Positions 39,754-49,674 of a DNA stretch of 64,000 nt are shown piece by piece; position 1 is the stretch's first letter, and each line of letters opens with the position of its first letter. Source of the DNA: an uncultured Flavobacteriaceae bacterium (GTDB taxonomy: Bacteria > Bacteroidota > Bacteroidia > Flavobacteriales > Flavobacteriaceae). Both the position numbers and the translations under genes were made by a program. Under the pieces are notes generated by a model. The model ran no database searches. It was not told the origin of the DNA and worked only from the letters and a program-made list of their open reading frames with translations. The stretch is from the NCBI GenBank assembly GCA_937944485.1, contig CALDYU010000011.1, positions 597-64,596 of the forward strand, in the 5' to 3' direction.

Positions 39754-40437
39754 ATGAAAAACTCGCAACAATTATTGTTGAATGCCGCCTTGTTTTCATT
39801 ATTAGCTGGTGGTCTTAGCAGCTGTCAAGGGGAAAAACAAAAACCAGAACAAAATAATGAGCCTGTGCCGATAACGGTTGAAGCCCCAGCAAACATTATT
39901 TCTTTAGAACAAGCTGATTCTATTTATGCGAATTACACCAAACATCGTGTCGCCGCAATTGAAAACTACGAAACTCAAGAGCGATCTCCTTCAGAAAAAT
40001 TTGAGGCCGCCCGTTTTGTAGATTTCGACTATCAAATGATTAAAGATTACATAGCATATGTTGACCAAGAAGCCTCAAAAGCAGGTGTAAAAGAAGTTAC
40101 AAAATTGCGTATGTATTTTGGTAATTATCCTAATAAAAAGCATTTTTCAAATGGAAAAAAAGTTGTTCATCCTAGACAAAATTCCATTTTCTTACTGCCC
40201 ACTTTGGCTGAAAATAAAGGTAATTATGGCTTTTATATAGGTAGCAATGGAAAAGCAGAATTAATTAAAGACTGGAAAGCTAAAATGCTGAAAGGAATGG
40301 GGTCGACATTGTCAAAACGTAAAATGAACGAGGCAAGTTTATTAACCAATTTCTTTTCAACTAGTAATGCCCAAGGAGGGGGGAGTTTAACATTGAATTT
40401 CGGAAACGGAGGGCCACCACCTCATACTGATTTTTAA
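39754..40437 (+). CDS. Hypothetical lipoprotein (227 aa)
   Basis: Lipobox GLSSC|Q; no recognisable domain. Confidence 0.6.
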   Translation: MKNSQQLLLNAALFSLLAGGLSSCQGEKQKPEQNNEPVPITVEAPANIISLEQADSIYANYTKHRVAAIENYETQERSPSEKFEAARFVDFDYQMIKDYIAYVDQEASKAGVKEVTKLRMYFGNYPNKKHFSNGKKVVHPRQNSIFLLPTLAENKGNYGFYIGSNGKAELIKDWKAKMLKGMGSTLSKRKMNEASLLTNFFSTSNAQGGGSLTLNFGNGGPPPHTDF

Positions 40438-40440
40438 ATA

Positions 40441-41130
40441 ATGTGGGAGGAAATGATCTTTTTTGCTGAAGAAAATTATTTTCTAATAAGTTATGGCATA
40501 ACCCTAATAGCCTCCTTAACTTATTATCGAATGTACTTTGACACATGCTTAAGGTTTTTTCCAATACTCATAACGTACACCTTTTTAAATGAACTTTTAG
40601 GGTACTTAGTATTGAGATACCCGAAATATCATTTATATATAAATGTAGACTTTAGTCATTATACTGAAATACTATATAATATCTATGCTCTAATTTCATT
40701 TACATTTTTCTATTATGTGTACTGGAAACTAATAAAAAACGGCAACTATAAAAAGTGGATTGTAGCGGGTTGGTTATTAGTGCTACTCTCGTATATTGTA
40801 AGCTCATTTTTTCAAGATCCGCAACGAACGAATCTATTTTATGCCACGGCCATTGGCTCATGGGTATTAATTTTTTGCATAAGTCTGTATGTATTAGAGA
40901 AATACCATAACCATGAAAATTTAATACAATCGAAGAATTTAATGTTTTGGTTTAGTCTGGCTCTATTAATATTCTATTCTGTACTACCTATTTTATTTTT
41001 AATTGGTTATACAAATTACCAGATTTGGGAAGCGTATCATTTAAAAACAATACTGAGAATCTTTATAATCATCATGTACGCCATCCTCACTATTGGATTT
41101 ATTAAAGGTAAACGACGCTACTTTTCTTAA
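40441..41130 (+). CDS. Hypothetical polytopic membrane protein (229 aa)
   Basis: About 6-7 hydrophobic segments rich in aromatic residues. It starts 3 nt after the lipoprotein stop. Confidence 0.6.
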   Translation: MWEEMIFFAEENYFLISYGITLIASLTYYRMYFDTCLRFFPILITYTFLNELLGYLVLRYPKYHLYINVDFSHYTEILYNIYALISFTFFYYVYWKLIKNGNYKKWIVAGWLLVLLSYIVSSFFQDPQRTNLFYATAIGSWVLIFCISLYVLEKYHNHENLIQSKNLMFWFSLALLIFYSVLPILFLIGYTNYQIWEAYHLKTILRIFIIIMYAILTIGFIKGKRRYFS

Positions 41131-41215: not shown

Positions 41216-41467
41216 TTACATTGAAGCAACGTGCTTTGCTAATTTACTTTTCAAATTAGCTGCTTTATTGTTATGAATAATATTGCGTTTTGCCAAGCGA
41301 TCAATCATGCTAACCACACTAGGCAATAGTGCTTCAGCATCTTTTTTCTTTTCTTCAGAACGCAATTTCTTCAAGGCATTACGCATTGTTTTGTGCTGAT
41401 ACCTATTACGAAGACGTACTGCTTCATTTCTTCTGATTCTCTTTAATGCTGACTTATGATTTGCCAT
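41216..41467 (-). CDS. rpsT: 30S ribosomal protein S20
   Basis: 83 aa; [12 protein letters not shown]... is the typical S20 N-terminus. Confidence 0.95.
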
Positions 41468-41526
41468 CTTTTACTTCTTAATTATAATTCTATTCTGTTT
41501 TTTCGTCGATACCAATCGAACTTTTG

Positions 41527-41598
41527 TAGCCCGTAGGGGAATCGAACCCCTGTTACCAGGATGAAAACCTGGCGTCCTAACCCCTAGACGAACGGGCC
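41527..41598 (-). tRNA. tRNA-Glu (anticodon UUC)
   Basis: The reverse complement folds by hand into a cloverleaf. Acceptor stem is GGCCCGT/ACGGGCT, anticodon stem CCAGG/CCTGG with loop TTTTCAT (anticodon TTC), and T arm AGGGG-TTCGATT-CCCCT. No CCA is encoded. Confidence 0.93.
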
Positions 41599-41673: not shown

Positions 41674-41745
41674 GTAGTCCGTAGGGGAATCGAACCCCTG
41701 TTACCAGGATGAAAACCTGGCGTCCTAACCCCTAGACGAACGGAC
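41674..41745 (-). tRNA. tRNA-Glu (anticodon UUC), second copy
   Basis: Identical to the first copy except for a compensated acceptor-stem pair (C3-G70 becomes T3-A70). Confidence 0.93.
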
Positions 41746-41851
41746 CATTACTTAATTTTTGTTTACAACCCAGTGAACATCAACAAAAAACGTCATTAGG
41801 CGGGTGCAAAAATACAATTATTTTTGACTACTACAAGAACAATTTCATCTT

Positions 41852-43327
41852 TTAATAAGCCTTTGCAAATAGTACGCGATACGGGGCATTTTTTCCCGTA
41901 ACCATACACTTTCCTTCTTTTTTCTCTACGTCAATGGGCACACAACGAATCGTGGCTTTCGTTTCCTTTTTTATACGATCTTCTGTTTCAGTTGTTCCGT
42001 CCCAGTAAGCTGAAATAAATCCACCTTTTTCTTCCAATACTTTTTTGAATGATTCATACGAATCAACCTCTGTAATATGTTCTTTTCTATAATCAAAGGC
42101 TTTTTGGTAAATATTCTTTTGAATATCCTCCATCAAATACTCGATTTTTTCAATCACATCACCCGCAGCAACAATTTCCTTTTTTAGAGTATCTCTACGA
42201 GCAATCTCATAAGTGCCATTTTCCAAATCGCGTTGCCCAACAGCCAATCGAATTGGCACCCCTTTTAGCTCGTATTCATTAAACTTAAAACCTGGCTTAT
42301 GCGTATCTCTATTATCGAATTTTACAGAAATTCCTTTAGAACGTAATTCTTTTACTAAAGGTTTTATTTTTTCAGAAATTATATCTAGTTGTTCTAAGCC
42401 TTTATATATCGGAACAATTACCACTTGTATTGGTGCTAATTTTGGCGGAAGCACCAGTCCGTTATCATCACTATGGGTCATTACCAAGGCTCCCATCAAA
42501 CGGGTAGAAACACCCCATGACGTTGCCCAAACAAAATCTTTTTGACCTTCTTTATTTGCAAATTTAACATCGAAAGCCTTTGCAAAATTTTGTCCTAAAA
42601 AGTGTGACGTTCCTGCCTGTAAGGCTTTACCGTCTTGCATTAAAGCTTCGATGCAGTAGGTCTCTATCGCACCAGCAAAACGTTCACTTTCCGTTTTCAA
42701 CCCCTTAATTACAGGTACCGCCATATGTTCTTCGGCAAAAGTAGCATACACATGCATCATCTGTTCTGCTTCTTCAATGGCCTCTTTCTCAGTAGCATGA
42801 GCCGTATGACCCTCTTGCCATAAGAATTCTGCTGTACGTAAAAAAAGACGTGTTCGCATTTCCCACCGAACGACATTGGCCCATTGATTAATAAGTAATG
42901 GTAAATCGCGATAAGACTGCACCCATCTTCTGTACGTATCCCATATTATAGTTTCAGACGTAGGTCGTACAATTAATTCTTCTTCTAATTTCGCATCTTC
43001 ATCTACAATAATTTCACTCCCGTCATCTGAATTTTTCAATCGATAATGTGTCACAACAGCACACTCTTTAGCAAAACCTTCTACATGGCTTGCTTCTTTA
43101 CTCAAATAAGATTTTGGAATAAAAAGTGGAAAATAGGCGTTCTCATGCCCCGTTTCTTTAAACATTTTGTCTAAACCCGCTTGCATTTTTTCCCAAATAG
43201 CATAACCATATGGTTTAATCACCATACAGCCCCTAACTCCTGAATTCTCCGCCAAATCAGCCTTTACAACGAGTTCATTATACCATTTAGAATAATCTTC
43301 GTCTCTCTTCGTTAAATTTTTACCCAT
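41852..43327 (-). CDS. proS: Proline--tRNA ligase (archaeal/eukaryote-like type)
   Basis: 491 aa. The N-terminus [16 protein letters not shown]...[15 protein letters not shown] and the class II motifs match. Confidence 0.97.
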
Positions 43328-43422
43328 TTATATAGTTTGGCATAAATCTTGTGTTAATCTTTTCGCAATAGTTTGGTAAAACTAACTATTTTTATAATGT
43401 TCAACAATTTAAATTATAACTG

Positions 43423-44745
43423 ATGATACAATCCCTGCACCTCAAAAATATTCGCGCTCTAGTGTTATGTAGTTTTATAGGATTCTTAGCTGTTTCATGC
43501 GGTACATACCAATCTGCTTCTTACTATGACAATGATGGTATTTACAGTAATGGGCAACGTGTTTCTGTAGATAAAGCTCCAAAACAAGTGGAACAACAAA
43601 AACAGCAAAAAGGAGAAAATACCTATGCTGATTATTTTGGACAAAAAGCAGATCAGTACAGCGAAATACTCGAAAGTGAAATTTTTACTGATGTTGATTC
43701 TTATGCTAGTGAAGTGCAGAACGATAGTATTTCTGAAGAAAATTTAACAGATTACTACACTCCAGATAATGATTATGTTGGTAATGGTAACTGGGGAGAT
43801 AATCCATCAAATGTAACTATTAATGTTTACGATAATGGCTGGAATAATTGGGGTGGTTTCGGTTATGGTTGGAATAATTCTGGCTGGGCGGGAGCCGGCT
43901 TTGGTTATGGATTTGGAGGTTATGGATGGGGTTGGAATAGATGGAATCGTTGGAATAGATGGAATAACTGGGGTTGGGCTGGTTATGGTTTCGGTTGGAA
44001 CAATTGGGGCTGGGGTGGCTACGGCTATGCTTGGTGCCCTCCATATGGTTACGGATTTAATAATAGAGGCTTTGGAAATAGAGGATATGGCTATGCCTAT
44101 AACGCAGGTCGACGTGGCTATTATAACAGAAATACAGTCTCTAGAAACAATGGGTTTGCAGCACGAAGTAGCAGATCAAACCTAAACACATCGAGAGCCA
44201 ATAGTTCAAGATACAGAACGAGTTCAGGAATGTCAATTGCTAATAGAAATGCTATTACACGAAGTACTAGAACAAGCAGAAACGGTATTGCTTCGCGGCG
44301 AACGGTTGGGGTTGATCGTAATCAAGCATACAGAACAAGTCGTAGCACTAGAGCAACTCCGAGATACAATCGTTCTTCTAGAAATAATCAGTACTACAGT
44401 AGATCTGCACCAAGAAGCAGCAGCTACAGAGGTGGTTCGACGGTCTATAGAAGTTCAAGGTCTACGACACCTAGGACTTCAAGTTATAGAAGTTCTAGAA
44501 GCAGAACTGGAAATACTGGAGCGTACAGAAGTTCACGAAGTACGCAATCATACAGAAGTTCTGCGCCTCGATCTAGCAGCTACAGGTCATCAGGTCGAAG
44601 TTCAAGCTCAAGAAGTTCTGGCAGCTACAGAAGTTCGGGTAGTAGTTCTAGAAGTTCAGGTAGTGTTAGAAGCTCGAGCAGTTCTTCAAGATCCTCTTCA
44701 AGTGGAAGATCTTCAGGTAGATCATCTAGCAGTAGAAGACAATAA
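43423..44745 (+). CDS. Low-complexity lipoprotein: Trp/Gly/Asn-rich block followed by Arg/Ser/Tyr-rich tail
   Basis: A single 440-aa frame links a signal peptide + lipobox (LAVSC, Cys26) to both low-complexity regions. Other frames are also open here, so frame support comes from the N-terminal signal. Confidence 0.65.
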   Translation: MIQSLHLKNIRALVLCSFIGFLAVSCGTYQSASYYDNDGIYSNGQRVSVDKAPKQVEQQKQQKGENTYADYFGQKADQYSEILESEIFTDVDSYASEVQNDSISEENLTDYYTPDNDYVGNGNWGDNPSNVTINVYDNGWNNWGGFGYGWNNSGWAGAGFGYGFGGYGWGWNRWNRWNRWNNWGWAGYGFGWNNWGWGGYGYAWCPPYGYGFNNRGFGNRGYGYAYNAGRRGYYNRNTVSRNNGFAARSSRSNLNTSRANSSRYRTSSGMSIANRNAITRSTRTSRNGIASRRTVGVDRNQAYRTSRSTRATPRYNRSSRNNQYYSRSAPRSSSYRGGSTVYRSSRSTTPRTSSYRSSRSRTGNTGAYRSSRSTQSYRSSAPRSSSYRSSGRSSSSRSSGSYRSSGSSSRSSGSVRSSSSSSRSSSSGRSSGRSSSSRRQ

Positions 44746-44781
44746 TCAGACAATCATTCGAACTTAATAAATTCTGTTGAA

Positions 44782-46287
44782 ATGAAAAGAAGTTTAACTT
44801 TCATAACGCTATTACTATGCACTTTTGTTACTGCCCAAAACAGTATTGATGTATTACGTTTTAGTAGCGAAAATACAATAGGAACTGCTCGATTTCAAGC
44901 CATGAGTGGAGCATTCGGAGCCCTAGGTGGAGACTTATCTGCCCTAAATGCCAATCCTGCAGGTGTTTCCGTATTTAATTATAATCAAGGTGTTGTTTCA
45001 GTATCGCATTACGGAAGAAGTAATGAAATTAGTTATGGCGGAAATGCCACGGGGACATACCCTGGATACTTAGATATCAATCAAGCCGGTGGTGTTTTAG
45101 TATTTAAAAGTAGTGAACCATCGTCTGAGTGGGGAAAAATTGCAGTAGCCGTTAACTACGACATTGTGAATAATTTTAATAACGAATTGAGCATTTCTGG
45201 TCAAAATACTGAGGGAATTGACAATTACTTTTTAAATTTTGCTCAAGGAGTTCCTTTCGGAGATATTACGTTACGTGATGGAGAATTTATAGAAGATGCC
45301 TATTTAGATATTGGTTCTGAACAGGGATTTGCCGATCAACAGGCTTTTTTAGGGTACTTTGGAGGTATTATAGATCCCGAAAATATGGAAGATTCAAATA
45401 CGAACTACCTTAGTAATGCCAATTATTCTAATGTAAATCAAAATTTGTCAAGAATAACGCAAGGTTACAACAGTAAATTTACAGTTACCGTAGGTTCACA
45501 GTATGCTGAAAAATTACATTTGGGAGCTTCTTTGAATTTTCATAGCATAGTCTACACTAGAAATGATGAATTCACAGAAAATAACTACGATGTAGGTTCT
45601 GAAATTACACAAACCACATTTGACAATCGCTTGTTCTCAGAAGGTACGGGATTCTCATTAAATTTAGGCCTTATTGCTAAGGTAACTGACGCATTACGCG
45701 TAGGGGCTAGTTATCAATCACCTACTTGGTATCGCCTGCAAGATAATCTACAACAACGCATTTCATCGGACCTGGCGGATGCTGATATTAACTTTATCAA
45801 CTTTGATCTAGTTAATGTGTTCCCCAGATACACCATTAAGAGTCCGGCAAAGGTTACTGGAAGTTTAGCATTGGTGTTTGGTAAGAACGGACTTTTAAGC
45901 TTTGATTATGGTATTCAAGATATGTCTCAGGCAAGGCTTGGGCCCACTTCTGATGCCAATTTTTCTACCATCAATGATGATATTTCGAATGAATTAACTA
46001 CTGTAACAAGTTTACGGTTAGGAGGCGAATATCGAATTAATAGATTCAGTTTACGTGGTGGATATCGCTTTGAAGGTAGTCCTTATGAAGACGGCAATTT
46101 AACGGGAGATTTAGAAGGAATTTCAGGTGGTATTGGATATGATTTCGGAGCTAGTAAATTAGATCTTGCAATTAGCCGTTATGAGCGAGATACGACCGAG
46201 CGTTTATTTGATTCAGGAATTACCACTCCGGCATTGATTGATAATAGTAATACCAATGTTACTCTAAGTTATACTACTAAGTTCTAG
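44782..46287 (+). CDS. Outer-membrane beta-barrel protein, FadL/PorV-like
   Basis: Signal peptide, N-terminal motif ARFQAMSGAFGALGGDLSALNANPAG, alternating beta-strand pattern, and a C-terminal ...SYTTKF aromatic terminus. Confidence 0.7.
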   Translation: MKRSLTFITLLLCTFVTAQNSIDVLRFSSENTIGTARFQAMSGAFGALGGDLSALNANPAGVSVFNYNQGVVSVSHYGRSNEISYGGNATGTYPGYLDINQAGGVLVFKSSEPSSEWGKIAVAVNYDIVNNFNNELSISGQNTEGIDNYFLNFAQGVPFGDITLRDGEFIEDAYLDIGSEQGFADQQAFLGYFGGIIDPENMEDSNTNYLSNANYSNVNQNLSRITQGYNSKFTVTVGSQYAEKLHLGASLNFHSIVYTRNDEFTENNYDVGSEITQTTFDNRLFSEGTGFSLNLGLIAKVTDALRVGASYQSPTWYRLQDNLQQRISSDLADADINFINFDLVNVFPRYTIKSPAKVTGSLALVFGKNGLLSFDYGIQDMSQARLGPTSDANFSTINDDISNELTTVTSLRLGGEYRINRFSLRGGYRFEGSPYEDGNLTGDLEGISGGIGYDFGASKLDLAISRYERDTTERLFDSGITTPALIDNSNTNVTLSYTTKF

Positions 46288-46301: not shown

Positions 46302-47747
46302 TTAGCGCTTTAAAGTAAAATGTGATTTTCTGGTTTTAGCAACAATCACTCCTGAATCTGCTTCGTCGTACTCAAAGCGAAACCAGTAATCTGAAGAAGG
46401 CATAGGTTTACCATTAAAAGTGCCATCCCAACCTCCAACGGCGTCAATTTGCTTTAACAATTTTCCATATCTATCAAAGATAAAGACGATGGGATTATCA
46501 AGTGTTTCAATACCCGAAATATTCCAAGTTTCATGCAACCCATCTCCATTTGGAGTAAAGAATTTGGGGTAGCCAACGACTAAAAATTCAAAAGGTTCTG
46601 AAGTACCGCAACCATTTTTGTCATTGATAACTACCGTATTTAATCCTGGAGGGATGTCCATGAAAATGGAACTATCTTGAAATTCTCCCCCATTTAAGGC
46701 GTATTCATAGCTGCTATTTCCGGTAACAAAAATTTCAATATCGTTTTGATTAGGGTCTTTCGATAAATTAGTTTCATTTATTTCTACTCGATCTAAAACA
46801 GGTGCTCCATAAAAAGTAATTAAAATTCCACCATCATCACGTACAGTTGGCGGAGAACCACTAATCGTTGTAATTTCGGCAAAATAACGTCCAGAATTTG
46901 GACTTGCAACAACAAGTTCGGCTCCAAAAGCACCAGTACCAAGTAGCGTAGCGTCTATGACACCATCATCATCAAAATCAACAGTCCAAGTAACGCTAGC
47001 AATATCTGCTCCTACGGGAGAGTTTAGAGCACTTAGTGGTATATCAGGATCTCCTTCGCAGGCTATAATATCTATTCCCAAAAAATCATCTCTCAAAGTA
47101 CAATCTAAAGCGGTATTCTGATCAGACTGCACAGAGCTACCCGTAAAGCTCAGCATAAAAGGCTCCGCGTCTCCATTAAAATTAGTATTAAAATTATTTA
47201 TTAAAATATAATACACTTCACCAGGCTCAACTTCCAACCAATCGTCATAGGTATTTTGGCTCCCCGTAATATGAGCCGCCCCCGTTTGTCCGCTAACGGG
47301 ATTAACACCAATACCAGTAAATCCGGTTTCATTGACCTCATAATTACATCGAATTGGTTGTGTCGTTCCGTTACCAATGGCAGTGCAATCGACATCGGGG
47401 CCGTAAACAGCAAAATCCCACTCAGCAGTTGGGGTTCCGCTACCGCCAACAGGCAAGGCTTCAATATCAAAACCTACTTGGCCGCCAGTACCAGCTCTAA
47501 AAACAAACCAAGAAGTATTATTTTCAATATTGGCACTAATAAGACTGCCTTTTTCTAAACAGCCGGTTTCGGTAATCACATCAGGATCAAATTCATCAAT
47601 ATCACCCCGACCATCTGCAAATGACATGATAGGCATGTCTGCACATACGGGAATTGCAGTTCTGCAATCACCTGAATTAGAGGTTTGAGCATATGTTGAT
47701 AAACTAAAAAAGAGGGAACAAAATGAGGCGTATAGTAGTGTTCGCAT
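46302..47747 (-). CDS. T9SS type-B sorting-domain (gliding-motility C-terminal domain) secreted protein
   Basis: C-terminal FFTPNGDGLHETWNI...FDRYGKLL...WDGTFNGKPMPSSDYWFRFEY is the type-B CTD pattern. It also has a signal peptide. Confidence 0.85.
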   Translation of the reverse strand: MRTLLYASFCSLFFSLSTYAQTSNSGDCRTAIPVCADMPIMSFADGRGDIDEFDPDVITETGCLEKGSLISANIENNTSWFVFRAGTGGQVGFDIEALPVGGSGTPTAEWDFAVYGPDVDCTAIGNGTTQPIRCNYEVNETGFTGIGVNPVSGQTGAAHITGSQNTYDDWLEVEPGEVYYILINNFNTNFNGDAEPFMLSFTGSSVQSDQNTALDCTLRDDFLGIDIIACEGDPDIPLSALNSPVGADIASVTWTVDFDDDGVIDATLLGTGAFGAELVVASPNSGRYFAEITTISGSPPTVRDDGGILITFYGAPVLDRVEINETNLSKDPNQNDIEIFVTGNSSYEYALNGGEFQDSSIFMDIPPGLNTVVINDKNGCGTSEPFEFLVVGYPKFFTPNGDGLHETWNISGIETLDNPIVFIFDRYGKLLKQIDAVGGWDGTFNGKPMPSSDYWFRFEYDEADSGVIVAKTRKSHFTLKR

Positions 47748-47868: not shown

Positions 47869-49674
47869 TTACCTTTTCAAAGAAAAATGATTATTTATAT
47901 ACTTAGCCTCGGTAATTTGACCATTACTATCAGTATAGGTTAGTTTAAACCAATAATCTGAAGCTGGCATCAGAGATCCGTTAAAAGTCCCATCCCATCC
48001 TGCACTATTTTCATTCATCTGATACAAAAGTTTGCCGTATTTATCATAAATACTTATTACTGGATTATCTAAATGCGACATGCCTTCAATAGTCCATTGA
48101 TCATTCATTCCATCTCCGTTAGGTGTGAAAAATTTCGAAAAACCTGCAACGACAATATCCTCAGAAACGACACCACAACCTATAGGGTCATTAACCGTTA
48201 TGGTATGCCTGCCAGGTGATACATTTTCAAAAATATTGTTTAATTGATATTCTTCATTATCAATTTGATACTCCCAATTCCCATCGCTATCAGTTAATAC
48301 GCGAACGGTATTGTTATCTTGTAAATCATCAATTTCTATAGCTGCTATAGTAGGAGGTTTCGAAATAACGACGGTAATTTCCTTCATGCTAGAACAACTG
48401 AAGCCCGATTGCATATTTTCCACAGTGACCTTATATGATCCAGGTTGCGAAACATCAATGCTAGATGTTGTTTCGCCAGTAGACCAACTATAGGTATAAT
48501 CTGGCAATGCAACTAAAGATCCGATAGTTATACTTGCCTCCCCATCGCATAAAAAAACTTCATCATCAAAGTCTAATTCTGGCGTCTGAACACTACTCAG
48601 CTGAAAAGATTGCGTTGCGTCAAAGCAATTAGGGTTTTGAGCTGAACTAACCCGTATATAAATTCTCTGAGAAGTAGCAATCTGCGTATATTCCTTGGTT
48701 AAAAAATTAACTCCCGCATTGGCATCTGCTTGAGTACTATGATAGCTCACTACAAAATCGGTAGGGCTTTGCCCCCCTAATACCGATGTGTCTTTCGTTG
48801 ACAAATCATAACTAGATTCAGCAGAACATACTACATCATCTAAAACGGGAAAAGCAACGGGTACTGATGAAAAACCAACTTGTACATCACTAATTATATT
48901 ATTGTTTGAAGGTGTTACTACTTCTACCCGATATATTGCGGCATCAGTAACCATTAGGGTAGCATTATTCTGCCCCATTATCAATTCAAAACCTGAGCCA
49001 TCATCTTTATACCAATTATATGTTGATGCAACAACAGTAAGCGCATTTAATGTAATCGTCTCGCCTTCACAAGAAGCAATTGGTGGACCGAGTAGGTTAT
49101 TAATGATCGAACAATCTAAAGCATTTAAAGGATCATCTTTAAAAATTTGCCCTGAAAATTGTATAGAAAAACCAGAATTGCTGTTACTAAAATTGTTAAT
49201 CAGTAAGTAATAATCTTCTCCAGGAGCGACTTGTATCCAATCTTCAAATTGTATGTTTGCTGTTTCACCTGTAGGGTCTTCACCCACACCAATGAACGTA
49301 TTTTGGTCTTGGTTATCAAAAAAATTACAACGTATTGGCTCTCCTAAATTATTACAATCTGAAGCCCTATATAACGCATAATCCCAATCCTCATTGCTAT
49401 TAATTCCGATATTAAACCCTAATTGACCTGTTGCTCCTGTTCGAAAGCGATACCAACCAGAATTGGACTCTATGGCATTAGTAATGGTTTGTTCTAAACA
49501 ACCACTCGTTAGTGCTCCGTTAAAGTCATCATTACCAAAACCATTCGTACCTCCATTTACTGGAGTATTACTACAAATAGGTACCGCATTAACACAGTCT
49601 GCAGAGACTTGCCCGAAAAACGGACAAATACCTCCAAAAAAAGCGACTATGGTTATTATTTTGAGACGGTTCAT
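47869..49674 (-). CDS. T9SS type-B sorting-domain secreted protein (paralogue of 46302-47747)
   Basis: C-terminal FFTPNGDGMNDQWTI...YDKYGKLL...WDGTFNGSLMPASDYWFKLTY. The N-terminal ~190 aa are homologous to the neighbouring gene. Confidence 0.85.
   Translation of the reverse strand: MNRLKIITIVAFFGGICPFFGQVSADCVNAVPICSNTPVNGGTNGFGNDDFNGALTSGCLEQTITNAIESNSGWYRFRTGATGQLGFNIGINSNEDWDYALYRASDCNNLGEPIRCNFFDNQDQNTFIGVGEDPTGETANIQFEDWIQVAPGEDYYLLINNFSNSNSGFSIQFSGQIFKDDPLNALDCSIINNLLGPPIASCEGETITLNALTVVASTYNWYKDDGSGFELIMGQNNATLMVTDAAIYRVEVVTPSNNNIISDVQVGFSSVPVAFPVLDDVVCSAESSYDLSTKDTSVLGGQSPTDFVVSYHSTQADANAGVNFLTKEYTQIATSQRIYIRVSSAQNPNCFDATQSFQLSSVQTPELDFDDEVFLCDGEASITIGSLVALPDYTYSWSTGETTSSIDVSQPGSYKVTVENMQSGFSCSSMKEITVVISKPPTIAAIEIDDLQDNNTVRVLTDSDGNWEYQIDNEEYQLNNIFENVSPGRHTITVNDPIGCGVVSEDIVVAGFSKFFTPNGDGMNDQWTIEGMSHLDNPVISIYDKYGKLLYQMNENSAGWDGTFNGSLMPASDYWFKLTYTDSNGQITEAKYINNHFSLKR

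What the first reader, a model, noticed from the sequence alone, without database searches (positions are those of the whole stretch)
43423..46287. Lipoprotein built from a Trp/Gly/Asn block and a ~210-aa Arg/Ser/Tyr (SR-like) tail, paired with a FadL/PorV-like outer-membrane barrel
One 440-aa frame joins four parts.

- **Signal:** a signal peptide with lipobox (LAVSC, Cys26).
- **Spacer:** an acidic/polar stretch.
- **W/G/N block (aa ~121-229):** composed almost solely of G, W, N, Y, F and R. By my hand count there are 16 Trp between residues 124 and 204, including a literal WNRWNRWNRWNNW encoded by 9-nt TGGAAT-type repeats at 43933-43971.
- **SR-like tail (aa ~230-440):** almost pure Arg/Ser/Tyr/Thr, with YRSS(R/G)S-like units, ending SSSGRSSGRSSSSRRQ.

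Thirty-six nt downstream is a 501-aa signal-peptide protein with the FadL/PorV-type N-terminal motif (ARFQAMSGAFGALGGDLSALNANPAG) and a C-terminal Phe, which indicates an outer-membrane beta-barrel. The pair is convergent with two T9SS type-B cargo genes.

I know of no characterised bacterial lipoprotein with this architecture. The tail resembles eukaryotic SR/RGG-type low-complexity regions. Working hypotheses are a polycationic surface tail threaded or presented by the barrel that binds polyanions (eDNA, anionic algal polysaccharides, polyphosphate), an adhesive or condensate-forming matrix protein, or a plug/substrate of the barrel.
Basis: partly seen in the sequence, partly recalled or inferred. 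Interest (0 to 1): 0.7.

Follow-up and report, generated by a model that had tools for sequence, protein, structure and literature searches.

The report
Disordered lipoprotein paired with FadL-like barrel
A real, widely conserved but unnamed two-gene unit of marine and fish-associated Flavobacteriaceae encodes a FadL-type outer-membrane barrel and a lipoprotein that is predicted to be disordered from end to end, and its function is unknown.

Summary
The 440-aa frame is a genuine gene. About 78 loci keep it open in this frame. Conserved islands, one inside the Arg/Ser tail, show the third-codon-position variation expected of coding sequence.

The lipoprotein founds an undescribed family: 483 representatives, no Pfam or NCBIfam model, every record named "hypothetical", and no paper found. 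It is seen only in Flavobacteriaceae. It always sits in the order rpsT-proS(-) | lipoprotein -> barrel(+).

AlphaFold2 predicts no fold (pLDDT 44). The conserved layout is:
- a lipidated Cys followed at once by a conserved 16-aa motif;
- an acidic linker (about -13) with short motifs;
- a Gly-aromatic block (W, F or Y);
- an Arg/Ser/Tyr tail with no Lys (median net +30).

The barrel is a 14-strand FadL-fold protein with the NPA hatch motif and a conserved acidic loop insertion. Its closest structures are BamG subunits, then FadL. It is not PorV, and it is not a BamG orthologue by sequence. The T9SS cargo genes are lineage-specific neighbours.

Most likely this is a dedicated barrel-lipoprotein envelope complex that works through sequence composition. 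Which side of the membrane the lipoprotein faces, and what it binds, are unresolved. It lacks the canonical surface-export signal. Gene callers often mis-call it.

The parts
43334..43408 (.). Conserved divergent intergenic region between the proS start (CAT at 43325-43327) and the lipoprotein ATG. It contains AGTTTGGCAyAAAnnTTGTG and AATAGTTyGGTAAAACTAACTATTTTTAnnATGTTCAACAAT. It is probably the promoter/5'UTR region for one or both genes.
   Evidence: An alignment of 19 genera/species shows blocks at >=80% identity in non-coding DNA. The sequence was read. No sigma-70-type or TAnnTTTG match lies in this spacer.
43423..44745 (+). Lipoprotein CDS (440 aa plus stop). It is predicted to be intrinsically disordered after the signal peptide.
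   Evidence: The ORF is listed. 78 loci keep a full-length ORF in this frame, while the other two forward frames always contain stops. AF2 with a 42-sequence alignment gives mean pLDDT 44 and no secondary structure beyond the signal helix and one 7-residue helix.
43423..43500 (+). Signal peptide with lipobox (..FLAVS-C26). The Cys26 codon is at 43498-43500.
   Evidence: Cys is invariant in alignment A2. The median Cys position in the family is 26.
43498..43545 (+). Conserved motif directly after the lipidated Cys: CGTYQSASYYDNDGIY (family consensus CGSYQQASYYDNDGIY). It is the proposed docking segment. It is not a lipoprotein export signal.
   Evidence: D38, G39, I40 and Y41 are invariant. Codon-position entropy is 0.45/0.25/1.39 bits. 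There are no acidic residues at +1..+5 in 196/216 members.
43546..43782 (+). Acidic polar linker (aa 26-120 net -13). It holds two conserved short motifs, YADYFGQKA (43624-43650) and EIFTDVDSY (43678-43704), and a D-S-I O-glycosylation-type sequon (43723-43731).
   Evidence: Invariant Y68, F72, F88, T89, D90 and Y94. The family's median linker charge is -13. The sequon is present in 64% of members against 31% in shuffles.
43789..43836 (+). Conserved NWGDNPSNVTINVYDN motif. W124 and G125 are invariant. VTINVY has the alternating pattern of a beta-strand.
   Evidence: The beta-strand reading is inference.
43831..44109 (+). Gly-aromatic-Asn low-complexity block (16 Trp, including WNRWNRWNRWNNW at 43933-43971).
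   Evidence: Family medians are 37% aromatic, 23% Gly and 15% Asn. The aromatic residue can be W, F or Y.
44092..44124 (+). Conserved junction motif YAYNAGRRGYY (R230 and R231 invariant).
44110..44742 (+). Arg/Ser/Tyr/Thr tail: 211 aa, net +45, no Lys. It contains a conserved island, RRTVGVDRNQAYRTSRSTRATPRYN (44296-44370), and a conserved basic C-terminus (..GRSSGRSSSSRRQ, 44704-44742).
   Evidence: Family values are R 20%, K 0%, D/E 1%, net +30. Codon entropy in the island is 0.39/0.09/1.29 bits over 55 loci. All six Ser codons are used, so the composition is not a product of DNA slippage.
44746..44781 (+). 36-nt spacer between the two genes, with no terminator-like or promoter-like site. 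The two genes are presumed to form an operon.
   Evidence: The gap is 21-54 nt in most of the 80 related loci.
44782..46287 (+). FadL-family 14-strand outer-membrane barrel (501 aa plus stop). The signal peptide is aa 1-18 and the C-terminal residue is Phe.
   Evidence: Pfam Toluene_X scores 32.4 bits against a cut-off of 29.7. The AF2 model has pTM 0.70. The best Foldseek matches are BamG chains and FadL/TodX, E 1e-15 to 1e-10.
44836..44985 (+). N-terminal hatch region, the most conserved part of the barrel. It contains GAFGALGGDLS and the NPA motif (44953-44961).
   Evidence: Mean conservation is 0.83 over 81 barrels. N58, P59 and A60 are invariant.
45202..45435 (+). 78-aa conserved, strongly acidic insertion (net -13). 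The model places it as extracellular loop L2 between strands 3 and 4.
   Evidence: Topology is read from the AF2 secondary structure. The family's median charge is -10, and all predicted extracellular loops together carry about -24. This region has low pLDDT, so its placement is inferred.

Best explanation
The two genes form an operon for a dedicated outer-membrane complex. One partner is a FadL-fold 14-strand barrel. The other is a lipid-anchored protein that is disordered throughout.

**Proposed working (all inferred).**
- The lipoprotein is held at the barrel by its conserved short motifs. The key one is the 16 residues that follow the lipidated Cys with no spacer. [quoted passage not shown]
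- The rest of the chain acts through composition rather than fold. It has an acidic linker, a cohesive Gly-aromatic block, and an Arg/Ser/Tyr tail.
- Arg-aromatic and Arg-anion contacts would let the tail self-associate. They would also let it bind anionic envelope or environmental polymers, or the acidic extracellular loops of the barrel.
- The fixed core-genome position next to rpsT and proS suggests a constitutive envelope role, not a niche-specific adhesin.

**Shown here.**
- The gene and its frame are real.
- The family, its block architecture and the pairing are conserved.
- The lipoprotein is predicted to be disordered.
- The barrel has the FadL fold and an acidic insertion.

**Inferred only.** Physical association of the two proteins, the side of the membrane the lipoprotein faces, the ligand, and the physiological role.
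For: **Pairing.**
- All 80 barrel loci are compatible with an upstream same-strand lipoprotein. 73 of them carry the lipobox and the conserved post-Cys motif. The other 7 are incomplete data (contig ends, an assembly gap or a wrong-frame pick) or, in L073, a divergent lipoprotein.
- Six lipoprotein-anchored contexts from Flavobacterium, Tenacibaculum and metagenomic lineages all have the barrel directly downstream, while the genes further downstream differ.
- There is no terminator or promoter signal in the 36-nt gap.

**Real, selected protein.** Codon-position entropy and frame integrity support this. All six Ser codons are used and there are almost no DNA repeats.

**Disorder with conserved short motifs.**

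**Composition is conserved across the family.** Tail R is 20% with K about 0%. The linker is about -13 and the tail about +30.

**Barrel.**
- The best fold matches are BamG chains (9hiv_F, 9n2d_B, 9hjm_F; target-normalised TM-score, TMt, 0.59-0.64), ahead of FadL/TodX (0.48-0.62; 0.52-0.57 for full-length chains).
- BamG anchors the lipoprotein BamH through BamH's lipidated N-tail, and BamG2-BamH2 are encoded as an adjacent pair (PMC12611786, PMC12578637).
- The predicted extracellular loops are conserved and acidic.

**Weak co-evolution signals.**
- Tail charge against extracellular-loop charge: Spearman -0.35, p = 0.007, not corrected for phylogeny.
- Distances of the lipoprotein N-region and the barrel, partial r = 0.58 given proS. 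Controls give 0.35-0.46.
Against: - There is no direct evidence of a complex. No multimer prediction could be run.
- rpsT and proS are just as constant neighbours, so part of the linkage is simply ancestral gene order.
- The co-evolution signals are weak, and the controls are also significant.
- The loop-charge correlation may reflect marine versus freshwater habitat.
- T. maritimum keeps a +49 tail but has lost most of the acidic L2 loop.
- F. columnare has a near-neutral tail. Polyanion binding therefore cannot be the universal function.
- The absence of an export signal argues against canonical surface exposure (PMC5080379), so the acidic loops and the tail may lie on opposite sides of the membrane.
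- The barrel retains every sequence hallmark of a transporting FadL channel (hatch, NPA). It appears to lack the 10-12-residue N-terminal extension that distinguishes BamG. That comparison was made by hand against a remembered FadL sequence only.
Confidence: 0.4

Rival explanations
1. The barrel is an ordinary FadL-type importer of hydrophobic molecules such as fatty acids or aromatic lipids. The lipoprotein is a periplasm-facing accessory on the inner leaflet of the outer membrane. Its aromatic block would capture or hand on the hydrophobic substrate, or gate the hatch. Its basic tail would reach the peptidoglycan or anionic phospholipids.
For: - Pfam Toluene_X scores above its cut-off.
- The hatch and the invariant NPA motif are the most conserved part of the barrel.
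- There is a break in strand 3 at aa 130-133, where FadL has its kink.
- No BamG-type N-terminal extension was seen in a hand comparison.
- The lipoprotein has no export signal, so a periplasmic orientation is the default reading (PMC5080379).
Against: - No FadL system is known to need a lipoprotein partner.
- This reading does not explain why an Arg-only, Ser-rich tail of 100-230 aa is conserved.
- It also does not explain why the extracellular loops carry a conserved acidic insertion.
Confidence: 0.25
2. The two genes are neighbours only by inherited gene order and work independently.
For: The whole block rpsT-proS-lipoprotein-barrel is conserved, and proS is as constant a neighbour as the barrel. 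The mirror-tree controls are also significant.
Against: - The genes share a strand, with a short conserved gap (21-54 nt in most loci) and no terminator.
- Genes downstream of the barrel turn over while the pair never separates.
- The conserved motif directly at the lipidated Cys calls for a membrane-embedded partner.
Confidence: 0.15
3. The pair is a paralogue of the BamG-BamH module, that is, an accessory part of the Bacteroidota BAM machinery.
For: BamG chains from three species are among the best fold matches, and one is the top hit. BamG2-BamH2 are also an adjacent barrel-lipoprotein pair.
Against: - A profile of the barrel finds no PDB chain even at E <= 10, although F. johnsoniae BamG (9N2D) is in that library. 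An orthologue from the same bacterial family should be found easily.
- The barrel is about 100 aa longer than BamG.
- The partner is disordered, whereas BamH has folded domains (PMC12611786).
- The locus is next to proS, not next to bam genes.
Confidence: 0.08
4. The barrel is a PorV/PorQ-like or PorP-like T9SS component that shuttles or anchors the two adjacent type-B cargo proteins.
For: The two convergent neighbours carry T9SS type-B sorting domains and have no PorP/SprF gene beside them. That adjacency is kept in 70 of 80 loci.
Against: - PorV_fam scores 26 bits against a cut-off of 90, and there is no PorP_SprF hit.
- No PorV chain is among the best 50 fold matches.
- The cargo genes are convergent, so they are not co-transcribed with the pair.
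- They are missing in L067, L068, L074, L076, L078, L081, F. columnare, T. maritimum and other lineages that keep the pair.
Confidence: 0.04
5. The 440-aa frame is a chance ORF or a decaying gene in low-complexity DNA, and one of the alternative-frame ORFs is the real gene.
For: A public assembly has alternative-frame ORFs called here. The exact product is not on record. Read-through artefacts such as P0011 exist.
Against: - 78 loci keep the frame open, while the alternative frames always contain at least 2 and at least 11 stops.
- Third-position entropy is 1.0-1.4 bits against 0-0.5 at positions 1 and 2, including inside the tail.
- 483 family representatives share the same architecture.
Confidence: 0.01

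Closest known systems
BamG-BamH (and BamG2-BamH2) of the Bacteroidota BAM complex (PDB 9N2D, 9HIV, 9HJM; PMC12611786, PMC12578637)
   Same: A FadL-fold 14-strand barrel acts as the holder of a lipoprotein, whose lipidated N-terminal segment binds the barrel. BamG2-BamH2 are encoded side by side. BamG chains are among the best structural matches to this barrel, and one is the top hit.
   Different: - There is no detectable sequence similarity to BamG.
- This barrel is about 100 aa longer and carries an acidic loop insertion.
- It appears to lack the BamG N-terminal extension.
- The partner here is entirely disordered and lacks an export signal, whereas BamH is a folded surface lipoprotein.
- The locus is not linked to bam genes.
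FadL/TodX/TbuX hydrophobic-compound channels (Pfam PF03349)
   Same: The Pfam match is above its cut-off. The fold has 14 strands. The N-terminal hatch carries an invariant NPA motif. There is a break in strand 3 where FadL has its kink.
   Different: - Sequence identity is only 10-15%.
- There is a 78-aa conserved acidic insertion.
- It is obligately paired with a lipoprotein, which is not a feature of known FadL systems.
- No substrate is known.
RcsF-OmpA/C/F interlocked lipoprotein/barrel complex of Enterobacteriaceae (PMC4942254)
   Same: A lipoprotein is associated with a barrel. It has a disordered, positively charged segment that contacts anionic envelope components. This is a precedent for a lipoprotein chain passing through a barrel lumen.
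   Different: - There is no homology.
- RcsF has a folded signalling domain and a short linker.
- Its partners are general porins, not a dedicated co-encoded barrel.
- Nothing here shows threading.
PorV/PorQ FadL-like T9SS proteins
   Same: They belong to the same superfamily of 14-strand barrels, and in Bacteroidota they bind other proteins.
   Different: The NCBIfam PorV_fam score is far below its cut-off (26 against 90). No PorV chain is among the best fold matches. The link to T9SS cargo genes is lineage-specific.
Eukaryotic low-complexity domains: FG-nucleoporin repeats, RS domains of SR proteins, and RGG/prion-like domains such as those of FUS and hnRNPA1 (from general knowledge)
   Same: The composition and 'grammar' are alike. 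There are Gly-aromatic repeats (literally GFG repeats in two species). There are 41 RS/SR dipeptides. Tyr and Arg act as potential stickers, with Ser/Gly as spacers.
   Different: - This is resemblance of composition only.
- There is no RRM, no nuclear context and no known kinase.
- The protein is Sec-exported and lipid-anchored in a bacterium.
- Phase separation has not been tested.

Membership tests
FadL/Toluene_X outer-membrane transporter family (PF03349) | Match to the family HMM above the curated cut-off | tested here: met
   32.4 bits against a cut-off of 29.7, a marginal pass. PF03349 is precomputed for most of the 120 closest homologues.
FadL/Toluene_X outer-membrane transporter family (PF03349) | 14-strand beta-barrel fold | tested here: met
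   The AF2 model has pTM 0.70, and 14 strands were read from its secondary structure. Foldseek matches FadL, TodX, TbuX and CymD at E 1e-14 to 1e-10.
FadL/Toluene_X outer-membrane transporter family (PF03349) | N-terminal hatch with a conserved NPA motif | tested here: met
   N58-P59-A60 are invariant in 20 sequences. The hatch is the most conserved region across 81 barrels. Its 3D placement is not reliable, because pLDDT is below 50.
FadL/Toluene_X outer-membrane transporter family (PF03349) | Kink in strand 3 giving a lateral opening, and transport of hydrophobic substrates | tested here: inconclusive
   The secondary structure breaks at aa 130-133 within strand 3. An opening cannot be judged from the output available. 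Transport cannot be tested here.
PorV/PorQ family (NCBIfam NF033709) | HMM score above the cut-off | tested here: not met
   26.4 bits against a cut-off of 90, and only aa 393-463 match.
PorV/PorQ family (NCBIfam NF033709) | Functional and genomic association with the T9SS | tested here: not met
   The type-B cargo neighbours are convergent. They are absent from many lineages that keep the pair.
BamG (FadL-like BAM subunit of Bacteroidota) | Orthology to Fjoh_1412 / BT BamG by sequence | tested here: not met
   phmmer and a 20-sequence profile find no PDB chain, not even at E <= 10, although 9N2D, 9HIV and 9HJM are in the library.
BamG (FadL-like BAM subunit of Bacteroidota) | Conserved 10-12-residue N-terminal extension that passes through the lateral opening (PMC12578637) | tested here: inconclusive
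   Only a hand comparison of the mature N-terminus (QNSIDVLRFSSEN..) with E. coli FadL recalled from memory suggests about one extra residue before the FSS motif. No BamG sequence was available to align.
BamH-type or other Bacteroidota surface lipoproteins | Lipoprotein export signal: two or more acidic residues at about +3..+5 after the Cys (C-X-K-(D/E)2-X; PMC5080379) | tested here: not met
   The sequence after the Cys is G-T-Y-Q-S. 196 of 216 family members have no acidic residue at +1..+5.
Bacterial lipoproteins (general) | Signal peptide with a lipobox and an invariant Cys | tested here: met
   A positively charged n-region, a hydrophobic core and AVS-C26 are present. Cys is invariant in 42 sequences. 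Lipidation itself cannot be tested here.
SR proteins / RS domains | RS-dipeptide-rich domain attached to RRM domains, and phosphorylated by SRPK/CLK kinases | tested here: not met
   There are 41 RS/SR dipeptides. However, no Pfam domain of any kind is found in 42 members. The similarity is one of composition only.

The most novel reading that the evidence does not exclude
The lipoprotein is a bacterial counterpart of eukaryotic phase-forming low-complexity proteins. It would be anchored at, and perhaps threaded through, its dedicated FadL-like barrel. Its FG-like Gly-aromatic block and RS-like Arg/Ser/Tyr tail would associate through Arg-aromatic contacts into a cohesive gel or condensate layer on the outer membrane. 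That layer would gate access to the channel or bind anionic polymers. This would be a protein-based surface or periplasmic 'phase' built from a lipid-anchored disordered protein.
Probability: 0.15. Interest if true: 0.9.

Novelty: new variant of a known kind. Interest (0 to 1): 0.62.

Why it matters
**Why the clade matters.** Flavobacteriaceae are main degraders of algal biomass in the sea, and they include major fish pathogens (F. columnare, T. maritimum). Their outer membrane has recently been shown to use FadL-like barrels as protein-holding modules (PorV, PorQ, BamG).

**What is new.** This pair would add a further case, and an odd one. It is a core-genome operon whose lipoprotein has no predicted fold at all. 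Its composition is otherwise known from nucleoporins, SR proteins and prion-like RNA-binding proteins. If the two proteins form a complex, it gives a tractable bacterial system for asking what exported, lipid-anchored low-complexity sequences do.

**Practical point.** Gene callers often truncate this gene, call it in the wrong frame, or fuse it to the barrel. It is therefore under-represented in protein databases, and automatic names such as 'Vitellogenin II', 'alkaline phosphatase family' and 'prolyl-tRNA synthetase' are wrong.

Tried and rejected
**Searches that found nothing.**
- Pfam and NCBIfam scans of the lipoprotein, and a Pfam scan of 42 homologues, found no family.
- A profile of the lipoprotein against PDB sequences returned only low-complexity noise at E > 0.2.
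- The barrel against PDB sequences, as a single sequence and as a profile, found nothing. Only the fold comparison linked it to BamG and FadL.
- An exact look-up of the 440-aa product found it is not on record.
- Literature searches for motif strings and for descriptive terms found no paper on the lipoprotein family.
- Scans for promoters, terminators and TAnnTTTG were uninformative.

**Readings considered and rejected.**
- T9SS/PorV, on score, fold ranking and distribution.
- BamG orthologue, on sequence.
- Chance ORF or pseudogene, on comparative codon statistics.
- Slippage-generated repeat or phase-variable locus. There is only one 9-nt x3.8 repeat, and all six Ser codons are used. F. columnare strains do show in-frame length variation in their tail repeat.

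**Things I could not do.**
- A paired or multimer structure prediction.
- Finding the F. johnsoniae orthologue, if there is one, so as to read its behaviour in the published BAM-depletion proteomes.
- Getting a BamG sequence to align the N-termini.

**Weak or confounded tests.**
- The correlation between tail charge and loop charge.
- The mirror-tree test. Both were run, but they are weak and confounded by phylogeny and habitat.

Full report
**1. The observation.**

ORF 43423..44745 (+) encodes 440 aa.
- The signal peptide ends in AVS-C26.
- There are 16 Trp between residues 124 and 204.
- WNRWNRWNRWNNW is encoded at 43933-43971. It lies on a 9-nt repeat present in 3.8 copies.
- The tail (aa 230-440) has 46 Arg, 73 Ser, no Lys and one acidic residue, giving net +45. 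It has 41 RS/SR dipeptides.

Against the other long ORFs of the window these compositions are far from chance. P is 2e-12 for Trp, 1e-23 for Arg and 1e-31 for Ser.

The barrel gene starts 36 nt downstream, at 44782..46287. It carries the quoted N-terminal motif at aa 36-61 and ends in Phe. The two convergent genes are T9SS type-B cargo proteins.

**2. Is the frame real?**

This needed checking, for three reasons.
- The low-complexity DNA leaves a second frame open for 120 and 176 aa.
- A public assembly of the same locus has exactly those alternative-frame ORFs called.
- The 440-aa product is not on record.

The comparative data settle it.
- A scan of species-representative genomes with the barrel gave 80 loci.
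- With six further contexts and the window itself, 78 loci carry a full-length ORF in this frame. The other two forward frames always contain stops, at least 2 and at least 11 respectively.
- In conserved islands the third codon position varies (1.0-1.4 bits) while positions 1 and 2 barely do (0-0.5 bits). This includes the island YRTSRSTR inside the tail, seen in 55 loci.
- All six Ser codons are used, AGY and TCN about equally, and there is almost no DNA repeat. The composition is therefore selected at the protein level. It is not a by-product of slippage.

**3. The lipoprotein family.**

An exhaustive HMMER search found 483 representatives at 50% identity with E <= 1e-3.
- Named members are all 'hypothetical protein' or carry obviously spurious names: Vitellogenin II, alkaline phosphatase family, prolyl-tRNA synthetase, YgcG.
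- None of 42 members matches any Pfam family. NCBIfam has no model.
- No paper was found.
- Named sources are all Flavobacteriaceae: Maribacter, Zobellia, Arenibacter, Flagellimonas, Cellulophaga, Robiginitalea, Winogradskyella, Formosa, Psychroserpens, Algibacter, Bizionia, Olleya, Polaribacter, Tenacibaculum (including T. maritimum), Christiangramia, Salegentibacter, and Flavobacterium columnare/covae. There are also large clusters from ocean metagenomes.

AlphaFold2 with a 42-sequence alignment predicts no structure after the signal peptide, at mean pLDDT 44.

The alignment shows a fixed order of parts:
- the lipidated Cys, followed immediately by CGSYQQASYYDNDGIY (D38, G39, I40 and Y41 invariant);
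- an acidic linker with the motifs YxDYFGxKA and EIFTDIDSY;
- GWGDNxxxVxINVY;
- a Gly-aromatic-Asn block;
- YAYNxSRRGYY;
- the Arg/Ser/Thr/Tyr tail, with an island RRxVGVDRNxAYRTSRSTRxxPRYN and a basic end (..GRRN/Q/G).

Family-wide numbers:
- the linker has a median net charge of -13;
- the block is 37% aromatic, 23% Gly and 15% Asn;
- the tail is 20% Arg, 0% Lys, 1% Asp+Glu and 29% Ser, with a median net charge of +30.

- The aromatic residue is interchangeable. Two species have GFG repeats with only two Trp.
- The charge is not universal. The F. columnare tail is made of near-neutral PRNYESSPRSYET repeats, and their number differs between strains.

What is common to all members is Arg, Ser and Tyr in the tail and Gly-aromatic in the block.

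A D-(S/T)-(A/I/L/V/M/T) sequon occurs in the linker twice as often as in shuffled sequences, 64% against 31%. I know this pattern as the Bacteroidota O-glycosylation motif. Its enrichment fits an exported protein.

**4. The barrel.**

- Pfam Toluene_X is just above its cut-off.
- PorV_fam is far below its cut-off, 26 against 90 bits.
- The AF2 model (pTM 0.70) has 14 strands. Strand 3 has a break at aa 130-133. The hatch is placed with low confidence.
- The Foldseek ranking is headed by BamG of the B. thetaiotaomicron BAM complex (9hiv_F, E 2e-15).
  - F. johnsoniae BamG (9n2d_B) and P. gingivalis BamG (9hjm_F) give target-normalised TM-scores (TMt) of 0.59-0.64.
  - FadL, TodX, TbuX and CymD give 0.48-0.62 (0.52-0.57 for full-length chains).
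  - No PorV chain is in the best 50.
- By sequence, neither the protein nor a 20-sequence profile finds any PDB chain, even at E <= 10. It is therefore not the BamG orthologue of these bacteria. F. johnsoniae belongs to the same family, so an orthologue would be easy to detect.
- The hatch is the most conserved region, with GAFGALGGDLS and an invariant NPA, as in transporting FadL channels.
- An insertion of 78 aa (aa 141-218) is conserved and strongly acidic: -13 here, family median -10. The model's topology places it as extracellular loop L2.
- The predicted extracellular loops together carry about -24, while the periplasmic turns are near neutral.

**5. Context.**

In the 80 loci the order is rpsT-proS (-), lipoprotein-barrel (+), one or two type-B cargo genes (-), folE (+). 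The cargo genes are missing in six of these loci.

In F. columnare, T. maritimum, a Flavobacterium MAG and three metagenomic lineages, the genes downstream of the barrel are quite different (miaB-like, nifU and others). There are no T9SS cargo genes there. Where the sequence reaches upstream, rpsT-proS | lipoprotein-barrel is unchanged.

The pair is never separated. The few loci without a clean lipoprotein ORF are contig ends, an assembly gap or a wrong-frame pick, plus one divergent lipoprotein, L073.

There is no terminator or promoter signal in the 36-nt spacer. The spacer between proS and the lipoprotein is conserved across genera at the DNA level.

**6. What it most likely is.**

The literature gives a precedent. 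In the Bacteroidota BAM complex the FadL-like BamG holds the surface lipoprotein BamH. BamH's lipidated N-terminal tail lies in a groove of BamG. The paralogues BamG2 and BamH2 are adjacent genes (PMC12611786, PMC12578637). PorV and PorQ are other FadL-like barrels that bind proteins.

Four observations point to a dedicated barrel-lipoprotein complex:
- the most conserved segment of the lipoprotein starts at the lipidated Cys, with no spacer;
- the rest of the protein is disordered, with short conserved motifs;
- the barrel is always co-encoded;
- the barrel has unusually conserved loops.

Two weak quantitative signals agree.
- Tail charge is negatively correlated with extracellular-loop charge (Spearman -0.35, p = 0.007), not corrected for phylogeny or habitat.
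- Evolutionary distances of the lipoprotein N-region track those of the barrel (partial r = 0.58 given proS) more closely than either tracks proS or folE (0.35-0.46).

The low-complexity blocks would then act through composition. Arg rather than Lys, together with Tyr/Trp/Phe, is the combination known from general knowledge to give salt-tolerant multivalent contacts, both Arg-aromatic and Arg-sulfate/phosphate/carboxylate. I put 0.4 on this general model.

**7. What remains open.**

Orientation is unresolved. The family lacks the Bacteroidota lipoprotein export signal, which is position-dependent (C-X-K-(D/E)2-X; PMC5080379). By default the protein therefore faces the periplasm. The acidic loops of the barrel would then be on the other side of the membrane, unless the chain passes through the barrel as RcsF does through OmpA (PMC4942254).

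The barrel keeps the hallmarks of a working FadL channel. A plain importer of hydrophobic substrates with a periplasmic accessory is thus a serious rival (0.25). Mere inherited adjacency cannot be excluded (0.15). The BAM-paralogue (0.08), T9SS (0.04) and artefact (0.01) readings are poorly supported, for the reasons given above.

**8. Novelty and score.**

The barrel is a new clade of a known family. The lipoprotein family is undescribed, and I know of no characterised counterpart among bacterial lipoproteins. The pairing is a new variant of the barrel-plus-lipoprotein theme. A specialist in the Bacteroidota envelope would find it surprising and easy to test. Nothing yet shows what it does. 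Interest is 0.62.

The most novel reading still allowed is a lipid-anchored, phase-forming protein layer at a FadL-like channel. I give it a probability of about 0.15.

Noticed in passing
window 43823..44185 (+), 44237..44767 (+), 43820..44044 (-); L001; P0011: Spurious alternative-frame ORFs overlap the low-complexity DNA. In a public assembly of this locus they are called instead of the lipoprotein (116 and 172 aa). In a Maribacter genome an alternative-frame ORF is fused to the barrel (P0011, 672 aa). Many database entries for the family are truncated to 175-260 aa.
   Followed up: yes
window 41526-41598 and 41674-41746 (-): Two tRNA-Glu(TTC) genes lie between rpsT (41216..41467) and proS (41852..43327).
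   Followed up: partly
window 43334-43408: The non-coding spacer between proS and the lipoprotein is conserved across genera. Next to the proS start there is AGTTTGGCACAAAnnTTGTG with a 5-bp palindrome, CACAA/TTGTG, which is imperfect in this window. Before the lipoprotein ATG there is AATAGTTyGGTAAAACTAACTATTTTTAnnATGTTCAACAAT. In Flagellimonas the ATGTTCAACAAT stretch is in frame with the gene and gives an apparent MFNNKNC extension.
   Followed up: partly
window 46302..47747 (-) and 47869..49674 (-): Two paralogous T9SS type-B cargo proteins share a Cys-containing N-terminal domain. No PorP/SprF-like gene lies beside them. They are conserved downstream of the barrel in 70 of 80 related loci but absent in other lineages.
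   Followed up: partly
L082 6001-7134 (F. columnare); proteins P0228, P0360-P0373: The F. columnare/F. covae orthologue has a tail of 13-aa PRNYESSPRSYET repeats with near-zero net charge. Full-length strain variants are 352, 364 or 377 aa long, which suggests in-frame changes in repeat number.
   Followed up: partly
L002 3235-4554; L060 3645-4961: In two species the aromatic block is built from GFG repeats (for example GFGGFGGFGFGGFGGFGGFGGFGYGGFGFGG) with only two Trp. The block is therefore defined by Gly plus an aromatic residue, not by Trp.
   Followed up: yes
L073 4200-4964: One uncultured flavobacterium has a 254-aa lipoprotein upstream of the barrel. It keeps traces of the family motifs (YNNYF, AYNRNR) and a basic Ser/Pro/Arg tail, but it lacks the Gly-aromatic block.
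   Followed up: no
L083 7178-8608 (T. maritimum barrel): The T. maritimum barrel is shorter (476 aa) and has no precomputed Pfam hit. It has lost most of the acidic L2 insertion (22 aa, net -4). Its lipoprotein nevertheless keeps a +49 tail.
   Followed up: no
window 39754..40437 (+) and 40441..41130 (+): A 227-aa probable lipoprotein (..LSSC) is followed 3 nt later by a 229-aa multi-pass membrane protein with a weak acyltransferase-3 match. The pair is only partly conserved in related loci.
   Followed up: no
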